This document shows, in pieces, positions 1-63,041 of a stretch of 64,000 bases of DNA. The stretch's first letter is position 1; each line of letters starts with the position of its first letter. The notes below the pieces were generated by a model. It worked only from the letters and a program-made list of their open reading frames with translations, had not been told where the DNA came from and ran no database searches. Made by a program: the position numbers and the translations under genes. Origin of the DNA: Octopus vulgaris (lineage: Eukaryota); contig OX597828.1 in NCBI GenBank assembly GCA_951406725.2, forward strand, positions 38,688,001-38,752,000, in the 5' to 3' direction.

Positions 1-200
1 AATCGTTAGCACGCCAGGGGAAATGCTCAGTGGCATTTCATCCATCTTTACGTTCTGAGTTCAAATTCTGTTGAGGATGAGTTTACCTTTCATCCTTTCA
101 GGGTCGACAAAATAAGTACCAGTTGAGTACTGAGGTTGATGCAATCGACTTAATCCATTACCCTGAGCCTGCTGGCCTTGTGCAAAAATTTGAAACCAGA
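1..200 (+). mobile_element. tRNA-derived SINE, family B (head ...gaatcgttagcacgcc), cut by window edge
   Basis: B-box-like GAGTTCAAATTC and body ctttcatcctttc.gggtcga.aaaataagtaccag shared with copies at 2055, 9890, 23978, 24415, 31330 and 58608. Confidence 0.75.
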
Positions 201-280
201 ATTCTTTCTTCAGATTGGTATTCTTTTAAATTTTGGCACAAGGCCATCAATTTTGATGGGAAGATTCAAGCCAATTACTC

Positions 281-872
281 ATACCGGCTGCCTCAGACAC
301 TCGTCGAAGAGCACCCTTGGAGGAACCATGTGGGCTGAAACAACCAGGAGGTGAACATGCTACTGCAACGCAAATGACGACGCCCGACAACACCTGCCTC
401 ATGGCTAATGCACCAACCTGTGTGACGATGCCAGAGCAATATCCCGCAGGCATGAAACTGGATGGGCAAAGACAGGGCAGCTGATGCAGCAGCGATGCAT
501 GCAAAGCTCCGCAGCCTGACTGCACACATCCTGGCAAATAGGGCTGGGAGTGTGAACAGATGACCGAAGCAGACGTGCGCTAGGCACACCCGCAATGGCG
601 CTGTCACCCCATATGTGTTCAGGCATGTTTTCAAGACCTGAATTCCAACTACAAGCTTTTCAAATGCAACAGTTTTAATATACGCTACCGAAGCTGGAAT
701 TACCATGGCTGCTGGCACCAGACTTGCCCTCCAGTCGATCCTCATTAACAGATTTGAAGTGTACTCATTCCAATCATGGGGCCTCAACAGAGTCCCACAT
801 TGATATTTTTCATCACTACCTCCCCATGCCGGGAGTGGGTAATTTGCACACCTGCTGCCTTCCTTGGATGTG
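281..872 (-). pseudogene. 18S rRNA: 18S rRNA pseudogene fragment (conserved block before V4 plus a GC-rich putative V4 expansion)
   Basis: Minus strand of 640-872 reads CACATCCAAGGAAGGCAGCAGG..CAAATTACCCACTCCCGGC..GGGGAGGTAGTGA..GAGGGCAAGTCTGGTGCCAGCAGCCATGGTAATTCCAGCT..GTAGTTGGA, a universal SSU block with CpG-to-TpG decay. Assigning 281-630 to V4 is inference. Confidence 0.85.
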
Positions 873-944
873 TACCCCCAGTACATGACTGATACTTGTT
901 TCATCAACACCCAAATGTTGTTTACCAATATATAGGCACAGGCT

Positions 945-1157
945 TATATAGGTAGGTCCTTTCACCATAACCATTTTTTCCACAGTCACCCACCTTTTCA
1001 CAAATTCACTGAGAGAGAGCACTTCCCTCTCCACCCTCATTTTCCTCTCCAAGTGGAATTTTTTAAAAAAAGACTAATGAGGGCTTGACCAAAGAGGAAT
1101 GTGTCTTTCTTCAATTCTTTCAGCCTCGGTCACCACATAATCTCTTTTACCATAGCT
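945..1157 (-). mobile_element. old 3' fragment of a Tx1-like LINE ORF2
   Basis: Translates ERKMRVEREVLSLSEFVKRWVTV, similar to KRKMRLERKVLSDSKFYERWVNC at the C-terminus of the 44875-48309 ORF. Confidence 0.75.
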
Positions 1158-43020: not shown

Positions 43021-44241
43021 AACACTTTCTTCGGAAGATGTTTAATCTTTTAGCATTGAAATTATTCTGTCAAAACTAATTGTTTTGAATTAATCATATA
43101 CTGTTTTGTAGCTATGAGATTTTGATGAGGAAACTGTTAATTTTTTAGAAAAATATTGTAGGGTTGATGAGTGAGTCCAGATCTGGCCAGTTTGAACGTA
43201 AAACAGGTAAAATATTTGAGCCAAATATGGCTGGTTAAAATGCTAAAGGGTTTTTAAAAATCTTACAATGAATGCATCATATGCTCTGAATCTAAACTGC
43301 AAATCTACCTTCCATTTAATGCCAAAGTTCACACAGCCATTTAGATGTCTCAGTATTGATTTCAAATGTTCAGCCATCATCTTGTTGCTATCTGTTTCTG
43401 ACTATAGATGAATATTTGAGCTTTCTCTTTGTGATTGCATGTTCAGGTATGACACTTCACAGTCATTCTTTGTCCTTCAATATATATCCTTCAAGTCTGG
43501 TACTCTAGCTTCAAAGATTTTTCCAGTTACCACTGCCAGAAATTCCACTTACATGTATTATACATCTGCATGTGATCCAGTCTAGCTAATGTAAACAGTG
43601 TACTTAAGTATTCAAGTATTGAGATTGATTTTATTGACTCACTTCCTTTCCAAGAAAATTACTGACTTTGTACCTAAGCTAGGGACAAAATACTTAATGT
43701 ATTAAGCATTAGAAATACTAATTAGAAATACTTATGAGTTAATGAAGAGACATTGTTTGTTCAATAACTGATATGTTAACCATTTCAAAAAGACTTTTTG
43801 ATACTCATTAATTATGTGTTATCACTAACTCAACTATTATAAAGCTACCATAGTTATTAAAAATCAAATTATCTACCCACTTGCATAATGTTGTTTAATT
43901 TTTACTCAAATGAAATTTTATGAGTTCTTTCCCTTGATCTCTTTTATGAGTAATTTTCATTAACATTAATGAATTTTTTCTTTCTGTGGTTATAATTTCT
44001 ATTGATTAAAATTATTTTTAGCCCATCGCATTAAATATGGTAGCCTGTTCCTAACTATATGTTATTCATGCTAACAACATCCTTGGGCAATTTTTTAATA
44101 TTATTTATTTTAACTTGCCTAATCAATGAATTATTTTCATACCAAAGTTATAAACTGTTCATGATATAAACTGTTCAGATAGCTTTATGCAGGCAATGCT
44201 TTACTGAGGAAACCTAATAACACTGAAACCTGTCCTGAGTT

Positions 44242-44592
<351 letters not shown>

Positions 44593-44874
44593 CAATTCTT
44601 TTTTATTGGCCACAAGGGCTGACACGCATGATTACATAAAGGGACAAGACAGGACGAAAGGTTACAAAGGGTTTTGTCCGTTTTTTTAAAACATCGAGTA
44701 AAAATCTTTATAACAACTTATAAAATTCAACAATGAAAAACTCCCAAAAGGGGGAGACGTCTCGAAATGTTCCCGGTGGAAAAAACCCTACAAAAGCCAA
44801 CGGGAGCCTGGTCAAAAAAAGGGGGTGTAGAGAGTCCCCTTTCTTCTCCTTTTACATTACCTTTTTCTTTGAAA

Positions 44875-47800
44875 TCACAGGCGAAACCTGAGAACTGGTC
44901 CATTTATACAGGCCAGTCTCGCACAATTCACCCACCTTTCATAAAACTTGCTATCGGACAGCACTTTCCTCTCTAACCTCATCTTCCTTTTCAAGTGAAA
45001 CTTGAAAAAGTTGATGAGGCCTTGACCAAAGAGGAAAGTGTCTGTCTTTAGCCCTTTTAAACGAGTCCACCACACGACCTCTTTCGCCACAGCCACTAGG
45101 CACAAGAAAACGGCCTCGCCCTCCTTGTTAAAGGAGGTCGGCGGGGCAATCTTCACTATGGATTCGGCCGATAGTCGGATCCGTCCCACACGTGACAGTA
45201 GCTGTTCGACATAAACCCATATTTCAGCAATACTCGGGCACTGGACGAGTGCGTGCAGAACGGTTTCGTCGTCCTGGCAACACCTCGGGCAGGCCCGGCT
45301 GACGGCACTTCCGTGCCGGTAGAGTTTATCTCGAACAGGCAGAGCCCCTCGGTAGCACTGCCAGGCGAGAGACCTCTGGAAATTATCCATCGGCCCCGGC
45401 CCGAAAGTCCTCCCGAACAGACTGCTCAGTTCGTCGTCTTCAACGCCTAGAGTTTCCCCGAGAACGTCGTCGCATTTTTCCTCCACTAACCCTCTATAGA
45501 ACGCTAGAGTGGAGCTGTAACCGACCGCATTGCCCGCCTGGTGGAGGGCGGAGAGGGCTTGACGGCACTCGAGGTGCCAAGCGCCCTTTCTCGGTCTACG
45601 TTTGATCCAGGTCTGCAGCTCCGTCAAAGAGACGAGCTGCGGAAAATCGCGTCTGACAAAAGACGACCACACCTGTTCACCGTCTAGGAAGCGCTTGAGA
45701 TGCCGCAGCCTGAGCGCATGTCTGCGCAACAGCAACCACGGCATTCCAAGGCCTCCGTTCAGCGGTCGTTGACAGCAGATGGATCGCCTGACCAGTGGCA
45801 CCTGACCCTTCCACAAAAAGTCGAAGAGCAGACGTACCAGCTTGGCCAACCAGCGGTTGGGACAAGGGACGACGGTCAAGCGGTAATAGATGACGGATGC
45901 GATGTACGCATTCGCCACCTCCGCTCGACCTTTCAGGGACAGCTTCCTCTCGGCCCATTTCTGGGTGAGACGTGCCACTCTGCTCGTCACCTCTTCCCAG
46001 TTCTTATCCACCTGGAGGTCCGGACCGAACCAGACCCCGAGCAGTTTAACGGGTCCGTCTGTCCAGCGCCCTACGACGCTGTTGGACGGCATGGGCTTGC
46101 CTCTCCAGGTGCCCAGTTGCAAGCCCACAGACTTTTCCGCGTTAATCTTTGCCCCTGTCACCGCTTCGTACTGGTTTAGCGTCTCGCCAATCAGGCTAAT
46201 GTGCCTGTGGCTCGACACCACCACGGTGACGTCGTCGGCATAAGCAGACACGCTGTTTCCGCCTCCTAGATCGCGCGGGATGCCCCTCAAAGCCTCCAAC
46301 TTGCGCAGTAATGGCTCGAGAGTCAAAATGTACAAGAGGGAGGAGAGAGGGCATCCTTGGCGGACCGAACGCGAGATGTCGAACGGTTCCGAAAGGTGAC
46401 CGTTCACCCGTATCACCGAGCAGATGTTGCTGTATAAAGCAGCGATCCACCCGCGGAAGACTGGACCGAAGCCGGCTGCCTTGAGGACAGCTGCCAGGTA
46501 CTGATGGTCGACCCTATCGAAGGCTTTACTCTGATCCAAGTTGATCAAAGCCCCACCCGCGCCAGCGTCGTTACCCACCCTCTCTATGATGTAGCGCATG
46601 AGATGGAGGTTGGCGTGTATCGACCTGGTCGGCACGGCGCATGTCTGCGTCCCGCCGACCAGCTTGTCCACGACAAGCGCCAATCTCTTGGCTAGCACCT
46701 TGGCCAAAATCTTCAACTCTGCATTGAGCAGAGTGATGGGCCGGAAATTCCCTATAACGTCCCCCTTGTTTGGGTCCTTCTTTAGCAAAGCCACCACCCC
46801 TCGACAGACAAAAGCAGGAATTCTCCCGTTTTGCTGCCAGTTGCAGTAGACGTTTGCCAACAGGTCCGCAAACAAGTCTGGCATCGAAAAGTAAAGCTCG
46901 TAGGGCAGACCATCCAAACCCGGCGATCTACCTCTCGTGCAACTCTTCATCGCTTCCTGTACTTCCCAGGCAGATATCGGTCCTTCGCAGCACTCCGCCT
47001 CGCTGTCCGAGAGTTGCGGCAGTCCGTCCAGGTACACACCGAAGTCTGTACCGTTGGTGTCCGTTCCACCGCTCGTCCCAAACAGTTGAGCAAAGTGCCG
47101 CTGAAGCACCGTACACATCTGCTTCGGTTGGGTAACCTCGCGCCCGTTCTGGTCCACCAAAGACTGAATGGTTGCTTTGTTGCCTCGCTTCGCCTCCGCC
47201 ACGCGGGCCCATCGAGCGGCTCTAGTCCCCTCCCCGTTTAGCGAACGTGCCTTAGCTCTGACAACGCAGCCTTCGTGTTTGGCGTCGAAGTGTTGGTCGA
47301 GGGCCAACCTTGCCGCCAACACGTCGGTCGCGATGCCAGTGTCAAGAGCCTCGTCTAGTTTCTTAACTAAATCCCGCTCTCTCTTCCTACGTTCAATAGC
47401 TAGAGTCTTACTATACCTAATCGACTCTACTCTAATTGCTCTCTTGAGGGCAAACCACCAGTTGTTGTTGATGATTGCCCCCGTGAGCGCCCGCTTAACT
47501 AGTAAACTAATCCGGTCTCTGTAAGCTTTGCACGCCGTTAACGACGCGTTCAGCTTCCAGTAGCCGGGTCCCTGTCTATGTAGCCTATCTAAGTCGACCG
47601 TACAGATCACTAATTTGTGGTCCGTATATTCGACTAGGTGGAATTGTGGACACCCTACGCTGTCCTTATCCGCTGGCCTACAAAACACTCTATCTAAGTA
47701 CGATCTAGACGACCCGATGCGGTTTGTCCAAGTCCACATTGGCACATTCGGGTTGTCTAGTCGAAACCTGTCGGACAGCTGAAAGCGGCCGAGTAGGTTG

Positions 47801-48309
47801 GCGAGGCTCTTGCACCCTCCCCCTCTCCTAACAGACGCTCCCCTGCCCACCCGATCGAAACGTTCGTCTAAGACAGCGTTCCAATCCCCAACTAGTACTA
47901 GAGTGCGTGACGTTCCCAGGAAAACTTCCAGACGTTTGAAATAATCCGACTGCCCTGCTCCTGTCGGAGCGTAGGCAGCCAGCAGTCTGAAAGCACCGCC
48001 GTCACTACCGTCGACGTCGAGGACCACCAACTTACCTTCCGGATCCAAGAAGACTGTCCTTATTTTCAGGTCCAGGCCCTTCCGAAACAACACCGCAGTA
48101 CCACCACCGCCCGCTCCCGGCCGACACGGAGATAGAAATATCTCGTATCCGCCGAAAAGGGCTGCGAGTTCCTGCGGGTCGGAGAGCCTGGTTTCACTGA
48201 TGGCTGCTACATCCACATCATGAAACCTCAGGTCGTTTAACAGGTGACCCTGTTTCCAAGGTGACCCGAGGCCTCTCACATTCAAGCAACCGATTCTAAG
48301 ATTTGCCAT
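44875..48309 (-). CDS. LINE ORF2: AP endonuclease + reverse transcriptase + zf-RVT, 1144 aa, uninterrupted
   Basis: APE motifs LNVRGL, SET, GDWN, YLDRV, TDH; YWKLN; RT motifs SPGLDG, FRPITLLN, KAFDRV, RQGCPLS, YADD; CPRC..ETVLHALVQC. Confidence 0.96.
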   Translation of the reverse strand: MANLRIGCLNVRGLGSPWKQGHLLNDLRFHDVDVAAISETRLSDPQELAALFGGYEIFLSPCRPGAGGGGTAVLFRKGLDLKIRTVFLDPEGKLVVLDVDGSDGGAFRLLAAYAPTGAGQSDYFKRLEVFLGTSRTLVLVGDWNAVLDERFDRVGRGASVRRGGGCKSLANLLGRFQLSDRFRLDNPNVPMWTWTNRIGSSRSYLDRVFCRPADKDSVGCPQFHLVEYTDHKLVICTVDLDRLHRQGPGYWKLNASLTACKAYRDRISLLVKRALTGAIINNNWWFALKRAIRVESIRYSKTLAIERRKRERDLVKKLDEALDTGIATDVLAARLALDQHFDAKHEGCVVRAKARSLNGEGTRAARWARVAEAKRGNKATIQSLVDQNGREVTQPKQMCTVLQRHFAQLFGTSGGTDTNGTDFGVYLDGLPQLSDSEAECCEGPISAWEVQEAMKSCTRGRSPGLDGLPYELYFSMPDLFADLLANVYCNWQQNGRIPAFVCRGVVALLKKDPNKGDVIGNFRPITLLNAELKILAKVLAKRLALVVDKLVGGTQTCAVPTRSIHANLHLMRYIIERVGNDAGAGGALINLDQSKAFDRVDHQYLAAVLKAAGFGPVFRGWIAALYSNICSVIRVNGHLSEPFDISRSVRQGCPLSSLLYILTLEPLLRKLEALRGIPRDLGGGNSVSAYADDVTVVVSSHRHISLIGETLNQYEAVTGAKINAEKSVGLQLGTWRGKPMPSNSVVGRWTDGPVKLLGVWFGPDLQVDKNWEEVTSRVARLTQKWAERKLSLKGRAEVANAYIASVIYYRLTVVPCPNRWLAKLVRLLFDFLWKGQVPLVRRSICCQRPLNGGLGMPWLLLRRHALRLRHLKRFLDGEQVWSSFVRRDFPQLVSLTELQTWIKRRPRKGAWHLECRQALSALHQAGNAVGYSSTLAFYRGLVEEKCDDVLGETLGVEDDELSSLFGRTFGPGPMDNFQRSLAWQCYRGALPVRDKLYRHGSAVSRACPRCCQDDETVLHALVQCPSIAEIWVYVEQLLSRVGRIRLSAESIVKIAPPTSFNKEGEAVFLCLVAVAKEVVWWTRLKGLKTDTFLFGQGLINFFKFHLKRKMRLERKVLSDSKFYERWVNCARLACINGPVLRFRL

Positions 48310-48347
48310 GTCTCAAAGTAGGGGGAAAAAAAGGAGAAAAAAAGGCT

Positions 48348-49155
48348 CTACTTACTGTTGTTGGTGGTGGGGGTGGCTCCCTTGTGCTTTTGCACGGGTG
48401 CTTCCACAATGTTTTTATAAAGTTTCTTCGAGAAACTTTTCCCTAGCGATCCCACATCGTTAGGGAATATTTGTTTGATTTCATCATATGATTTTGCATT
48501 TATTTTTATTGTGAGAATGTGTGCTGGTGGTGTGTTTTGTGTTGGTATGATGAAATCGGTTATATTTGTACTAGTTTTGTTTTTTAAGTACTCCACTAGT
48601 TTTTGGTTCTTTGTGTTTATTGATGTAATTGTGTCTGTGTGTGTTTGTGTGTGTGGCAGTGGCAGTAGTGGTGTCGAAAGTGTTGTTGTTGTTTGTTGTT
48701 GTGAGTGTGTGTTGTTGTTGTTGTTGTTGTTGATGTTGGGAAGCACTATTTGTTCGTGCTTCCCCTGTAAATCTTTTTGTTTCTTCCTCCTTTTCTTCTT
48801 TGGAGGCACTATACTCCATTCTCCTTTGTTGGAATCAGAGCTCGCACAATCCGAGATCTCTTCATCCGGCAAAGGAATGGTTGAGGGGTCTGCTTCAGTA
48901 GCAGGACGAAAAGTTTCTGGTTCCACCGGTATCGGTGGTGCCGCTGCTCCTGTTACTGTTGATGTCGCTGCTGTCGACCTTCGAGGTACTGGTGTCGGTG
49001 TTGGTTTGGTGGTGGTTGTCGGTGTTGGTTTGGTGGTGGTTGTTGTTGTTGGAGGTGGTGTTGCTCGTCTTGGTGCTGGTGTTGGTGATGGTGTTGGTGG
49101 TGTGGCAGCCTTTGGTGTTTCTTGCTGTTTTTGTTGTTTCTGTTGTTGTTGCTTG

Positions 49156-49186
<31 letters not shown>

Positions 49187-49990
49187 GCTGCTGCCTCTTG
49201 CTGAAAGCCTCCATCCTCTTTTTGTGAATGGGACAGTCCCTCTTTAAGTGGCTTTCGCTGCTGCAGAGAAAGCATTTTGGCTTTCGCCCTCCACAGCAAC
49301 GTTTAGCCTAGTGCCGTCCGGCAAACTTACGAAATCAGGGACTTTACTTATATTCTCTTGCTGAATTTGCGCAAGAAGCAGCACTCCCATCCCCAACCAG
49401 TTTTTCGCCCTCACTCTCCTGACATCTAGAATGGTGGTAGTGTCCTCTATATCATAGAGGACAGCTGCCACCAGCCATGACATATTTAATTCAGGGGGGA
49501 CGAGGTCGATTTTTATTTTTGTAACTCTTCGCCCGAGGTGGGTTGGAATTAGTAACAAATTCTCAGTTTGCAAGGGCGAAATGGCGTTCGCCCTTGCCAG
49601 CTCCTCTGTTGGGAAGCGAACCTCCACGGTTCCAAAACGCTTCCCCTTGGTTACGTAGCTCTTTTGGGCCCAAATGGGCTTTAGAGCTATCTCCAACTGT
49701 TGGGGTGTGGCATTTGTTATTCTTTTTAGTTTTCTGTCGAAAACTTTGTAAATTATTGTTTGCTTGTTGGTGCTTTCAATCACCTCTTGTGGAGTATTGA
49801 GGAAGATACCATTGCCATCCTTCCTTAACAATTCCTTCGCTCTTTTCACATCTTCTAGAGTTATCTTAACTTCCTCCGAAATTTGCTTCGCAGCAGAAGC
49901 AAAATTGTTGGAAGTTTTTTCTTTTATCTCCGTGTCAATGTTTGTGATGATTTTTGTATTTGTTTTTTCTCCCTCCTCCTTCCTTACCAA
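48348..49990 (-). CDS. LINE ORF1 (gag-like: putative RRM region, CCHC knuckle, polyQ/Pro-Thr linker, basic motif), split by a frameshift near 49288
   Basis: The 248-aa and 288-aa ORFs are joined by one extra G, giving EGRKPKCFLCSSESHLKRDC (CX2CX4HX4C at 49233-49274); WSIVPPKKKRRKK follows; true start uncertain. Confidence 0.8.
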
Positions 49991-50360
49991 AGCATTGGGT
50001 GAAGGCAGAGGGGAAAATCAAGAATTACGTCGAACGCGACGTCATGACTTGCATTTTCCTTTTGAACCGAGCGCGTGCTCTGCGGTTCGGAAGGAGAATC
50101 TTGTTGCCTTTTAAGGCGTGAAGTGGGTGTTTTGTACGAGTTGTGCGTGTTTGCGGAGGGAGTGTATTTTGAAGGAAGGAACAGCCAACTGTTCGCTTCA
50201 TAGCCATGTTTTTTCTTGTTGTAATATTCAAAATGTTGAAAAATGTCAAATGTTCAAAATTTTCAAACGCAATTTCACCCCGAATGGGGCAAAATTTCGC
50301 CCAACCGACGAGCTCCGCAAGAAGCCGGTCGGTTTGGCTACAGAAATATTAAAAAATATT

Positions 50361-50472
50361 CAACAACAACAACAACATCAAAAAATACCTTAGGAATGAG
50401 AACAAATATCCATCAAATGTAAATAATATAAATAATGTACATAATTCCCCATCTCTTAAATATAGAACTGTA
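50361..50472 (+). mobile_element. distal right arm and 3' terminus of the tRNA-head/(AAT)n element
   Basis: 50361-50437 is the reverse complement of 44242-44320; ends ataattccccatctcttaaatatagaactgta as at 62138 (inverted) and ~56685. Confidence 0.85.
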
Positions 50473-50893
50473 CGGTCCTGAGTTGTTCCAAAACTTCCAG
50501 ATATCAGACACTTCCTTACTCCAAGCATACTTAAATTTAATTTCTGACAATGTGAGCCCAAGAGTTTTCTTCCCTGCTTCTTTTGAGAATAATTTTCATT
50601 AACACTAATGACATTTCTTCCTATTGCAGTTATAATTTCATTTGAGTAAAAACTTTTTTCAGCTCACCACACATTGGTTGTTTTACAAGAATAATGTGAA
50701 AGCACATGGCCTAATTCCTGGGGTATTCAGCACATGATCTTGAGGTCATAGGTTCAATTTCTGGATCCGGTAGAGCATTGTAACCTTGAACAAGACATTT
50801 CATTTCACATTACTCCAATATACCCAGCTGTAACTGAATGTTAGCCAGTTATTAGTGCAGCCCTTTTCTCTCTTCACCTTTCACATCCTAGAT

Positions 50894-55958: not shown

Positions 55959-56560
55959 CTACAGCTATTACACAATCTCAAAGCAATAAGACACACACAC
56001 ACGCATTTGCACATGCATGCACACACACATGCACATGCTCATATGGATATATAGTCACAACTACTACTACAACACTGCTATAACTACTTGAACCAGTGTC
56101 TTCTTAAGGTAGGTGCAATTTGTACTGCAACACATTGAGCCCTGGTAATTCATGGGTCAATGAATAACAATATCGTTAAGAATGGTTATGTGGTTAAGAA
56201 ACTCACTTTAAAAGCATGTGAGTTCAAGTTCAGTCCCACCTTGGGAGTGAATTTGGTAGAAAAAAAAATGAAAAAAAGCCTTATTATATATGTTTGTTGT
56301 TCTCAGATAAGAACTGATGTCACTTCCAAGCCAATAACACCACATGACCTGAGTTGACCAATAGCAGCTTAACATCTAAAAGCCATCTTGAATTTGACTC
56401 ATATGTGTGTTACTTGATCTCCAAATGTTTTGATGACCTATATTCATTTTATGAGCCTAGAAAACATAAAATTGTTCACTCACTCACTTTATCCACTGTC
56501 AGTGGATTAAAGCATCAAGGGTTCTGAGTTCAATCAAACAAGGCATTTATGTGAATCACA

Positions 56561-56688
56561 AGACACCTGAAGAAGGCTGGAGCGCACAACAGCCGAAATG
56601 TAGTGAAAGCAACAATCAAGATGAGGACACCATTCCGACTAAAATAAACAGTGTACAAAATTCCACATCTCAGAAATATAGAATTGTA
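56561..56688 (+). mobile_element. diverged 3' part of the hammerhead-bearing element
   Basis: CAC-CTGAAGA-A-GGCTG-loop-CAGCC-GAA-ATGT-A-GTG, then caagatgaggac and the aaatatagaattgta terminus, homologous to 62612-62715. Confidence 0.7.
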
Positions 56689-61911: not shown

Positions 61912-62317
61912 TTAAATAAATATCTCGCTGTTATTTCCGGACAAAGATTAAACAGAATTACTTTGATGCAACATCAGTTTTTGCATTAAACAAGCAGCAG
62001 TGAAAACAGGCTGCATACAGGAATAAGAAAGGGTTAGATCAGGTGTCAGCAAACTTCTCACATAACTGACTCCTTTATGGAATCATTGATGAATTTGGCA
62101 ACCCCCAGCATGTAAATTTATAAAATAAAAGTTAGGATACAGTTCTATATTTAAGAGATGAGGAATTATGTACTTTATTTACATTCGACGGATATTTGTC
62201 CTACGGGCATATGGCATAGTGGTTAAGAGCGCAGGCTACTAACCCCAAGATTCCAAGTTCAATTCCAAGCAGTGACCTGAACAATAACAATAATAATAAT
62301 AATAATAATAATAATAA

Positions 62318-62503
62318 GGACTTACAAACACATATAACGTACAGAAAATTGCACTACTAGGCACTGCACACATCCTACGCAGAACACTTTCAATACAGTA
62401 ACCATCAGAGCATCACAACAAATCACAGCACATACCCAAGGCACACAGAGCTGCGCTCGGTAGTGAAGTGAAAGCACGTTATAAAAATAAAACTACTGAA
62501 TGA
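62318..62503 (+). mobile_element. R4/Dong-clade non-LTR retrotransposon 3' end inserted in (TAA)n
   Basis: VQKIALLGTAHILRRTL* is the typical C-terminus after the restriction-like endonuclease; (TAA)n on both sides. Confidence 0.75.
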
Positions 62504-62612
62504 TAATAATAATAATAATAACAATAATAATAACAACAATAAATATAATAATAATAATAACAACATCAAAAAATACCTTTGGAATGAGAACCCAGGTTCA
62601 AAATTTTCCAAA

Positions 62613-62658
62613 GACACCTGAAGAAGGCTGGAGGGTATATCAGCCGAAACGTTGTGTT
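62613..62658 (+). ncRNA. minimal type-I hammerhead ribozyme motif
   Basis: GACAC-CTGAAGA-A-GGCTG gagggtatat CAGCC-GAA-ACGT-T-GTGTT: CUGANGA and GAAA cores intact, palindromic helix III. Confidence 0.75.
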
Positions 62659-62820
62659 AACAACAAACAAGATGAGGACAAATATCCGTCAAATGTAAAT
62701 AATGTAAATAATGTAAAAGTTAGGATTATGATTAAAAATAAAATTTGGGGGATATAAAAACACTCCTTCATTTTTTGTTGTTGTTTTTTCTATTACTACT
62801 GCTTTTTAATAAAAAAAATA

Positions 62821-63041
62821 TAGTGGTTAGGGCAGCGGACTTGCGGTCGGAGGATCGCGGTTTCGATTCCCAGACCGGGCGTTGTGTGTGTTTATTGAGC
62901 GAAAACACCTAAAAGCTCCACGAGGCTCCGGCAGGGGATGGTGGTGATCCCTGCTGTACTCTTTCACCACTCTAAAGGCGGTGCTCCAGCATGGCCGCAG
63001 TCAAAATGACTGAAACAAGTACAAAAAAAAAAAAAAAAAAA
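62821..63041 (+). mobile_element. young CpG-rich SINE: distinct tRNA head, family A tail, poly(A)
   Basis: tagtggttagggcagcggac..ggtttcgattccc head; taaaggcggtgctccagcatggccgcagtc tail; A-run of about 19. Confidence 0.75.

What the first reader, a model, noticed from the sequence alone, without database searches (positions are those of the whole stretch)
62138..62715. SINE-like family combining a tRNA Pol III head with a hammerhead ribozyme and Penelope-type inverted insertion
Seen: without the nested R4 piece, the element reads tRNA-like head (A-box TGGCATAGTGG, B-box-like AAGTTCAATTCC), (AAT)n/(AAC)n, a minimal type-I HHR (62613-62658) and a conserved end (..aaatatagaactgta). A reverse-complement copy of its own 3' end sits directly upstream. 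Relatives lie at 44242-44592/50361-50472 and 56561-56688. It has no ORF and no poly(A) or LINE tail. Known: Penelope-like elements (PLEs) carry minimal HHRs with palindromic helix III and often insert with inverted partial repeats; Schistosoma SM-alpha repeats combine Pol III boxes with an HHR. Inference: this is a Pol III-driven, ribozyme-processed, non-autonomous retroelement mobilised by a PLE rather than a LINE, possibly through a circular RNA.
Basis: partly seen in the sequence, partly recalled or inferred. Interest (0 to 1): 0.85.

Follow-up and report, generated by a model that had tools for sequence, protein, structure and literature searches.

The report
Penelope retrotransposon with tRNA-derived front end
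This short repeat is the terminal repeat of a protein-coding Penelope-type jumping gene, not a separate SINE; unusually, it begins with a tRNA-like promoter sequence exactly where most genomic copies stop, so the element's RNA likely starts there, possibly made by RNA polymerase III.

Summary
The motifs are real and linked: tRNA-like A/B-box head, (AAT)n, intact minimal type-I hammerhead, and an inverted arm, all inside one 13-bp target-site duplication. It is not an ORF-less SINE. It is the pseudo-LTR of an autonomous Penelope-like element (RT + C-terminal GIY-YIG). The head follows the ORF's stop codon in 29 of 30 ORF-end copies. The hammerhead lies inside the ORF's first codons. Short and ORF-bearing copies share the same haplotypes. 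About 26,000 insertions are estimated genome-wide. The unusual part is the 5' end: of 59 copies reaching the head's start, 47 stop within 12 bases of it. This likely maps the RNA's 5' end 13 nt before the A box. The 2.6-kb sense strand has no shared TTTT run (weak support, P 0.01-0.12), and 0 of 87 related loci from other organisms show an A/B pair. Best reading: internally primed cDNAs run to an RNA start in a captured tRNA head, likely a Pol III promoter (about 50%); a Pol II TATA start is the main rival. No evidence for circles. Nine literature searches found no such element; Repbase and Dfam could not be checked. The scan's earlier findings held nothing related.

The parts
62126..62138 (+). 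left target-site duplication (13 bp)
   Evidence: identical 13-mer at 62714-62726 and nowhere else in the window
62138..62202 (-). inverted arm: 3' part of the pLTR carrying the 33-nt PLE 'tail'
   Evidence: tail on exactly one arm in 38 of 40 divergent pairs
62203..62280 (+). tRNA-derived head, 5' end of the pLTR (this copy starts at -2 relative to the tRNA-like G+1 at 62205); A box 62212-62222, B box 62255-62266
   Evidence: similar to the genome's tRNAs (best z 7.3-7.6 for two tRNA-Arg genes among 20 tested), not called as tRNA by ARAGORN or Rfam
62281..62316 (+). (AAT)n microsatellite of the pLTR, left part
62317..62495 (+). later insertion: 3' end of an R4/Dong-like non-LTR element inside the (AAT)n
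   Evidence: C-terminal peptide motif, 24 other loci in the fetched DNA; family label inferred
62496..62562 (+). (AAT/AAC)n microsatellite, right part
62584..62715 (+). first ~44 codons of the PLE ORF (ATG at 62584), ending at the first inferred RT start site
   Evidence: open frame homologous to P0005 residues 18-50; the three ATG letters conserved in 118, 120 and 113 of 121 copies
62613..62658 (+). minimal type-I hammerhead ribozyme inside the ORF start; predicted cleavage after 62653; core intact in this copy
   Evidence: cleavage untested
62714..62726 (+). right target-site duplication (13 bp)
44239..44592 (.). second insertion, left half: inverted arm (HHR deleted), fold-back at the head, start of the direct arm
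   Evidence: TSD 44232-44241
50352..50472 (+). second insertion, right half: rest of the direct arm with the same 88-bp HHR deletion and the tail
   Evidence: TSD 50475-50484
56559..56688 (+). older, 75% identical relative (HHR to tail)

Best explanation
[quoted passage not shown] Shown: the order ORF stop, 30-nt spacer, head, (AAT)n, ATG, hammerhead, tail, rest of ORF; two 3' end points about 35-40 nt apart; inverted pairs with the tail on one arm and 12-13-bp TSDs; a sharp 5' boundary at -6 of the head. Inferred: the RNA starts at that G, 13 nt before the A box. The RT-GIY-YIG protein would nick both strands about 12-13 nt apart and prime two cDNAs at the two internal sites in the ORF start, as shown in vitro for Poseidon from Anolis (PMC11167929). 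Each cDNA would run towards the RNA's 5' end and the two would be joined head to head. Priming in the first pLTR of the RNA gives head-to-tail copies like this one; priming in the second pLTR of a read-through RNA gives ORF-bearing copies. The hammerhead stays uncleaved in the RNAs that were copied; it likely needs a dimer or the protein, and cleavage would cut off the start codon.
For: Head follows the ORF stop in 29 of 30 ORF-end hits, three of them near-duplicates on one chromosome. Natural full-length copy L102 aligns to P0005 residues 18-843 with pLTR pieces at both ends. L049 and four further hits run head, HHR, tail, ORF 5' part. 5' ends of 72 position-ordered copies: 13 inside the head (0.8% per nt), 47 at -7..+5 (9.0% per nt), 12 further upstream (0.36% per nt); P about 1e-32 against the in-head rate. 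Genome-wide exact counts: 1037 for -6..+25 but 283 when four more natural upstream bases are required; 3304 for the head's 3' half against 125 for the ORF end. In RNA reads of organism B the listed loose-end peak near the head's start lies at the same place in all 3 runs. No fixed differences between classes, three shared haplotypes, 18 label changes on the tree against 20.2 shuffled. Tail on exactly one arm in 38 of 40 pairs, P 7e-10. TSD of 8 bp or more in 24 of 50 two-strand insertions, control 2 of 82. No TTTT run among commonest-letter columns over 2285 + 262 nt; 4.1 expected in the ORF part, P 0.014. No A/B pair after the ORF in 0 of 87 related loci, against 19 of 30 own loci with the same patterns.
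Against: Pol III transcription is not shown. A TATAA motif at -28..-24, overlapping the ORF stop codon, fits a Pol II start at the same base; TATAA motifs lie upstream of the HHR in 4 of 14 printed relatives, and Penelope has a Pol II-type promoter (PMC2377424, abstract). TTTT depletion is weak: P 0.12 and 0.036 with synonymous resampling, GGGG is also absent (P 0.058), and the 17 T-poor relatives show only 10 of 22.5 expected runs (summed by hand). A and B boxes are no better conserved than the rest (4.9% and 3.5% against 3.5-4.0%). The boundary coincides with a GCCC-AC-GGGC palindrome that could stop RT. 14 of the 47 pile-up calls were moved from -11..-19 to -6 as false extensions into the fold-back arm. 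Head-start copies are less diverged than ORF-linked ones (3.7%, n=42, against 6.6%, n=10; P 3e-4), which hints at a later SINE-like phase. Many of the 87 related loci lack their 3' flank or are degraded, so 0 of 87 overstates the control. Pol III RNA is uncapped, so the source of the protein is unexplained.
Confidence: 0.5

Rival explanations
1. Same element and same copying mechanism, but the RNA start at -6 is a Pol II start set by the TATAA motif at the ORF stop codon; the tRNA head is a passenger that once inserted at the start site.
For: TATAA at -28..-24 and a pyrimidine-purine step at the boundary (sequence); TATAA motifs upstream of the HHR in 4 of 14 printed relatives; TATA/Inr in rotifer pLTRs (PMC3846280, passages); gives a capped, translatable mRNA.
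Against: The start lies 13 nt before an A box, with 43 nt between the starts of the A and B boxes; no shared TTTT in 2.6 kb. L049 has an ORF 5' part behind a head that starts at -4 without the TATAA.
Confidence: 0.28
2. The 5' pile-up is not an RNA start: RT copying a long read-through RNA stalls or snaps back at the GCCC-AC-GGGC palindrome in front of the head, or RNase P cuts at the tRNA-like fold.
For: Fold-back junctions at this palindrome are common; palindromes at inverted pLTR junctions are described (PMC3846280, passages).
Against: Only 7 of 47 pile-up copies were flagged as fold-backs by the pattern (a few more by eye); 14 join straight to unrelated DNA and many join other parts of the element. 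Many ends lie at -1..-6, upstream of an RNase P site at +1. The head does not fold as a cloverleaf.
Confidence: 0.12
3. One reading: an independent non-autonomous SINE with Pol III head and hammerhead, propagating from its own master copies with PLE enzymes, perhaps through circles.
For: Most copies start at the head; head-start copies are less diverged; tandem hammerhead repeats derived from PLE pLTRs exist (bioRxiv 10.64898/2026.07.22.740005, abstract and introduction).
Against: Every part is in the autonomous element; no diagnostic bases and no clade; 2 of 72 with a direct upstream piece. In Poseidon-Ac the template needs ORF sequence beyond the RT start sites (PMC11167929), which solo copies lack.
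Confidence: 0.1

Closest known systems
Poseidon from Anolis carolinensis (PAc; Penelope/Poseidon clade; PMC11167929)
   Same: Single ORF with RT and C-terminal GIY-YIG; HHR overlapping the ORF start; two RT start sites early in the ORF giving an optional 30-40-nt tail; product length set by the RNA's 5' end
   Different: In the parts read no tRNA-derived head or Pol III boxes are mentioned; here the ATG lies upstream of the whole HHR (cut at about +70, not +26) and an (AAT)n lies in the pLTR
Minimal hammerheads of metazoan PLE pLTRs (PMC4209133)
   Same: Type I, 5-bp helix I, long helix II, extra base between positions 9 and 10.1, G10.1-C11.1, palindromic helix III; single and opposite-strand pairs scattered genome-wide
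   Different: No tRNA head mentioned (0 hits for 'tRNA' in that paper's main text)
Schistosoma SM-alpha / Sj-alpha SINE-like repeats (as reviewed in PMC6765202)
   Same: Pol III-type promoter together with a hammerhead
   Different: Those are non-coding tandem repeats with the promoter at the 3' end of the cleaved monomer; here the unit is part of a coding PLE and occurs as monomers and inverted pairs
TRIMp3 elements Helenus, Ajax, Cassandra (PMC10886601)
   Same: Small-RNA-derived Pol III boxes inside a terminal repeat, proposed to arise by SINE insertion into the repeat
   Different: Those are non-autonomous LTR elements of at most about 1.3 kb; that paper argues the autonomous partners must use Pol II, whereas here the head sits in the repeat of the autonomous element
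Non-LTR retrozymes (bioRxiv 10.64898/2026.07.22.740005)
   Same: Short hammerhead-bearing derivatives of PLE pLTRs
   Different: Defined by tandem arrays and circular RNA; not seen here

Membership tests
EN+ Penelope-like element (canonical, C-terminal EN) | Single ORF with RT followed by a GIY-YIG-type endonuclease | tested here: met
   RVT_1 above cut-off in 2 of 5 natural ORF pieces; C-terminal CVYSIPCSC...YKGET...R..EH motif read by eye; no Pfam GIY-YIG hit; L102 matches P0005 over 18-843
EN+ Penelope-like element (canonical, C-terminal EN) | Partial tandem pLTRs that include the ORF start; inverted truncated pLTR at the 5' side | tested here: met
EN+ Penelope-like element (canonical, C-terminal EN) | 30-40-nt tail at one end; short TSD around inverted structures | tested here: met
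   bimodal 3' ends and TSDs; 38 of 40 pairs with one tailed arm
EN+ Penelope-like element (canonical, C-terminal EN) | Minimal type-I HHR in the pLTR | tested here: met
   (structure only)
Penelope/Poseidon clade specifically | RT phylogeny with named references; no Zn-finger-like linker | not tested
   no named reference sequences were available from the tools; the clade label rests on domain order only
tRNA-derived SINE (SINE2) | tRNA-related head with A and B boxes at the 5' end | tested here: met
   parent tRNA not resolved
tRNA-derived SINE (SINE2) | Non-autonomous family with its own lineage, head absent from the partner element | tested here: not met
   head present in 29 of 30 ORF-end copies; no clade or diagnostic base
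tRNA-derived SINE (SINE2) | Transcribed by Pol III | not testable with these tools
   indirect only; RNA-seq was unstranded and showed no molecule starts
Non-LTR retrozyme / SM-alpha type | Head-to-tail tandem arrays with an HHR in each unit | tested here: not met
   2 of 72 with a direct upstream piece
Non-LTR retrozyme / SM-alpha type | Self-cleavage and circular RNA | not testable with these tools
   needs in vitro cleavage and divergent RT-PCR

The most novel reading that the evidence does not exclude
An autonomous, protein-coding retrotransposon has replaced its Pol II promoter with a captured tRNA head and purged Pol III terminators from its 2.6-kb coding strand, so that Pol III transcribes the whole RT-endonuclease ORF: a PLE with a built-in SINE, whose solo terminal repeats make up most of its roughly 26,000 copies.
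Probability: 0.3. Interest if true: 0.8.

Novelty: new variant of a known kind. Interest (0 to 1): 0.56.

Why it matters
Kojima 2024 (PMC10886601) argues that autonomous partners of Pol III-headed repeats must use Pol II because Pol III is weakly processive; a Pol III-driven coding PLE would be a counter-example and a snapshot of how a SINE-like element can arise inside its own helper. Whichever polymerase is used, the family gives a large natural test of the in vitro Poseidon mechanism: a discrete 5' boundary, tail on exactly one arm in 38 of 40 inverted pairs, and 12-13-bp TSDs point to two cDNAs primed from two sites on opposite strands. It also warns that such copies can be mis-annotated as SINEs or tRNA pseudogenes.

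Tried and rejected
Rfam at gathering threshold on the window and at E-value level on two copies: no tRNA or hammerhead hit on the element. ARAGORN, also relaxed: no cloverleaf on the sense strand. Parent tRNA: only 20 of 34 listed tRNA genes were fetched; Arg(TCG), Arg(TCT), Thr and Cys score alike, so unresolved. Sequencing runs: no RNA holder listed. Three raw RNA-seq runs of organism B were unstranded and fragmented, showed no molecule starts or ends, and no tail-to-head joint among the 15 joints shown (69 not shown), so they do not test TSS, cleavage or circles. A/B-box conservation among dead copies was uninformative. PDB search with a homolog gave only weak group II intron-like RT hits. 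Viral contigs: no relative. No sister family of the 56559 copy in the fetched DNA. A strict minimal-HHR scan found only 2 motifs in window plus random sample and an intact core in 10 of 72 copies, so most copies have decayed. Chance nesting of head and HHR was rejected. Earlier scan findings: three unrelated poly-Asn hits and none by words. No structure prediction was run.

Full report
Setting. The window lies on contig C15 of a 2.8-Gb, 227-contig animal genome. From genome size and repeat types I take it to be an octopus; this is my inference and was not tested. Positions given as +n or -n refer to the tRNA-like G at window 62205 (+1).

Observation. The hammerhead at 62613-62658 is the minimum-free-energy fold of its stretch: 5-bp helix I, 6-bp helix II, an extra A after A9, palindromic ACGU for helix III and a GUU cleavage triplet. 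This matches the minimal PLE hammerheads of Cervera and de la Pena (PMC4209133; part 1 of 4 and passages read). Its folding z-score is unremarkable (-0.84) and Rfam does not call it. The inverted arm and the direct arm form one insertion inside a 13-bp TSD. The two 'relatives' at 44239-44592 and 50352-50472 are one insertion with a 10-bp TSD and a private 88-bp deletion on both arms, split in its microsatellite by a LINE with a 1145-aa endonuclease-RT frame. Head and hammerhead are linked in 26 of 29 head-query hits and 62 of 72 position-ordered copies. A systematic sample of 140 x 10 kb (chromosomes C1-C22, distal ends not covered) held 13 insertions, about 26,000 genome-wide (rough range 14,000-44,000).

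What it is. Four head hits shared sequence upstream of the head, which proved to be the end of an ORF. Searching with that ORF end, the head followed in 29 of 30 loci, three of them near-duplicates. Walking upstream gave natural full-length copies such as L102 and L099, with a partial pLTR, a decayed ORF of about 2.4 kb and a full pLTR. ORF pieces hit Pfam RVT_1 in 2 of 5 cases; the C-terminal GIY-YIG-type motif was read by eye. An unnamed homolog, P0005 (847 aa), aligns to L102 from residue 18 to 843, and its residues 18-50 match the frame that opens at ATG 62584 and runs through the hammerhead. 3' ends are bimodal, the tail is on exactly one arm in 38 of 40 divergent pairs, and TSDs of 8 bp or more, mostly 12-13, flank 24 of 50 two-strand insertions against 4 of 32 one-strand ones and 2 of 82 controls. 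Contigs bridging ORF end and head occur in all 4 further labelled organisms laid.

The 5' boundary. For 72 head units from the first 72 listed matches of an internal head pattern on C1 (70 loci), 13 end inside the head, 47 end at -7..+5 and 12 extend further (one to -20, eleven by 62 to 600 or more nt). Rates are 0.8%, 9.0% and 0.36% per base. I moved 14 calls from -11..-19 to -6 because the alignment had run into the fold-back arm; without them 33 remain in the 12-base window. In the random sample 6 of 7 loci that reach the head's first half start between -7 and +10 (read by eye). Exact genome-wide counts agree: 1037 for -6..+25, 283 with four more upstream bases, 3304 for the head's 3' half, 125 for the ORF end, 64 for the tail-to-ORF junction (patterns differ in degeneracy, so only 1037 against 283 is a like-for-like comparison). 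RNA reads of organism B show a loose-end peak at the same place in 3 of 3 runs, which reflects genomic copies and not RNA starts.

Separate SINE or solo pLTR? Among 121 copies (76 head-start, 45 ORF-linked) no column has a different commonest letter between classes (two columns passed Bonferroni for being more variable in the ORF class, one of them inside the selecting pattern). Three linked haplotypes occur in both classes, and on a star-like tree of 82 of them the label needs 18 changes against 20.2 when shuffled (bootstrap not converged). Against this, head-start copies are less diverged in the unselected set (3.7% against 6.6%, n 42 and 10, P 3e-4), though CpG decay does not differ (P 0.22). 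L049 and four more hits run from the head through the tail into the ORF, so RNAs that begin at the head continue into coding sequence.

Mechanism. Frangieh et al. (PMC11167929; parts 1-2 of 4 read) showed in vitro that Poseidon RT starts at two sites early in the ORF, that the product length follows the RNA's 5' end, that uncleaved RNA is the main substrate and that the hammerhead cleaves only with the protein. Applied here, short copies are cDNAs primed in the ORF start that ran to the RNA's 5' end, and the boundary at -6 is that end. The one-arm tail and 12-13-bp TSDs fit two cDNAs primed on opposite strands and joined head to head. These steps are inferred. The (AAT)n attracts later insertions (R4-like pieces in 3 of 72 copies).

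Which polymerase? For Pol III: the boundary G lies 13 nt before an A box, with a B box starting 43 nt after it; the head resembles the genome's tRNAs (best z 7.3-7.6 among 20 genes); there is no TTTT run among commonest-letter columns of 2285 + 262 nt, and no TTTT position is shared by more than 2 of about 30 copies. The support is weak: P 0.014 by shuffling, 0.12 and 0.036 by synonymous resampling of two tilings, GGGG is absent too, and while all 87 related loci show 298 of 340 expected runs, the 17 T-poor ones show 10 of 22.5 (my sum). For Pol II: TATAA at -28..-24, TATAA motifs in 4 of 14 printed relatives (a stricter pattern found 1 of 14 loci), TATA/Inr in rotifer pLTRs (PMC3846280) and a Pol II-type promoter in Drosophila Penelope (PMC2377424, abstract only). 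None of the 87 related loci has an A/B pair after the ORF, against 19 of 30 own loci, but many of them are short or decayed. I put Pol III at about 50%, Pol II at 28%, an RT stop or processing site at 12% and an independent SINE at 10%.

Known or new. PLE membership is met on every feature tested; clade assignment was not tested. SINE membership fails on independence, retrozyme membership on tandem arrays. Closest analogues are SM-alpha (PMC6765202, passages), TRIMp3 (PMC10886601, passages) and PLE-derived retrozymes (bioRxiv 10.64898/2026.07.22.740005, part 1 of 5 and passages; its supplements are closed). Nine searches of the open-access library listed no PLE with a tRNA-derived head in its pLTR; I judged most listings by title and abstract start only. 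Repbase, Dfam and subscription journals were not searchable, so the family may already have an entry there. No supplements were read.

Verdict. A real, abundant feature; a new variant of a known kind. The solo-pLTR identity is well supported (about 90%). The surprising part, a tRNA-derived head marking the RNA start of an autonomous PLE, is supported as a boundary and open as to polymerase. Interest 0.56.

Noticed in passing
window 44593-50351: About 5.75-kb LINE on the minus strand with an uninterrupted 1145-aa endonuclease-RT frame (44875-48312) and upstream ORF1-like frames, inserted in the (AAT)n of a pLTR copy; a similar end follows the (AAT)n in L071.
   Followed up: partly
window 1-954: Degraded 18S rRNA fragment on the minus strand with an internal insertion.
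   Followed up: no
window 62818-63030: Another tRNA-headed repeat with A/B-box-like motifs directly right of the element, followed by a common short repeat end.
   Followed up: no
L006, L027, L030, L075, window 62317-62495: R4/Dong-like 3' ends repeatedly sit in the pLTR's (AAT)n, consistent with microsatellite targeting.
   Followed up: partly
L431-L437: PLE ORFs with hammerhead-bearing pLTRs in a record titled as a Stappiaceae bacterial MAG; probably animal host DNA in the assembly.
   Followed up: no
L063, L064, L067, L094 (G000 C17): Four 97-98% identical loci sharing flanks: a segmental duplication carrying one PLE copy.
   Followed up: no
pLTR 3' part, e.g. window 62693-62715: The repeat before the tail varies among copies in steps of 9 nt, which keeps the ORF frame.
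   Followed up: partly
window 56559-56688: Lone 75% relative whose upstream sequence has faint A/B-box-like letters but no (AAT)n; no sister copy in the fetched DNA.
   Followed up: partly
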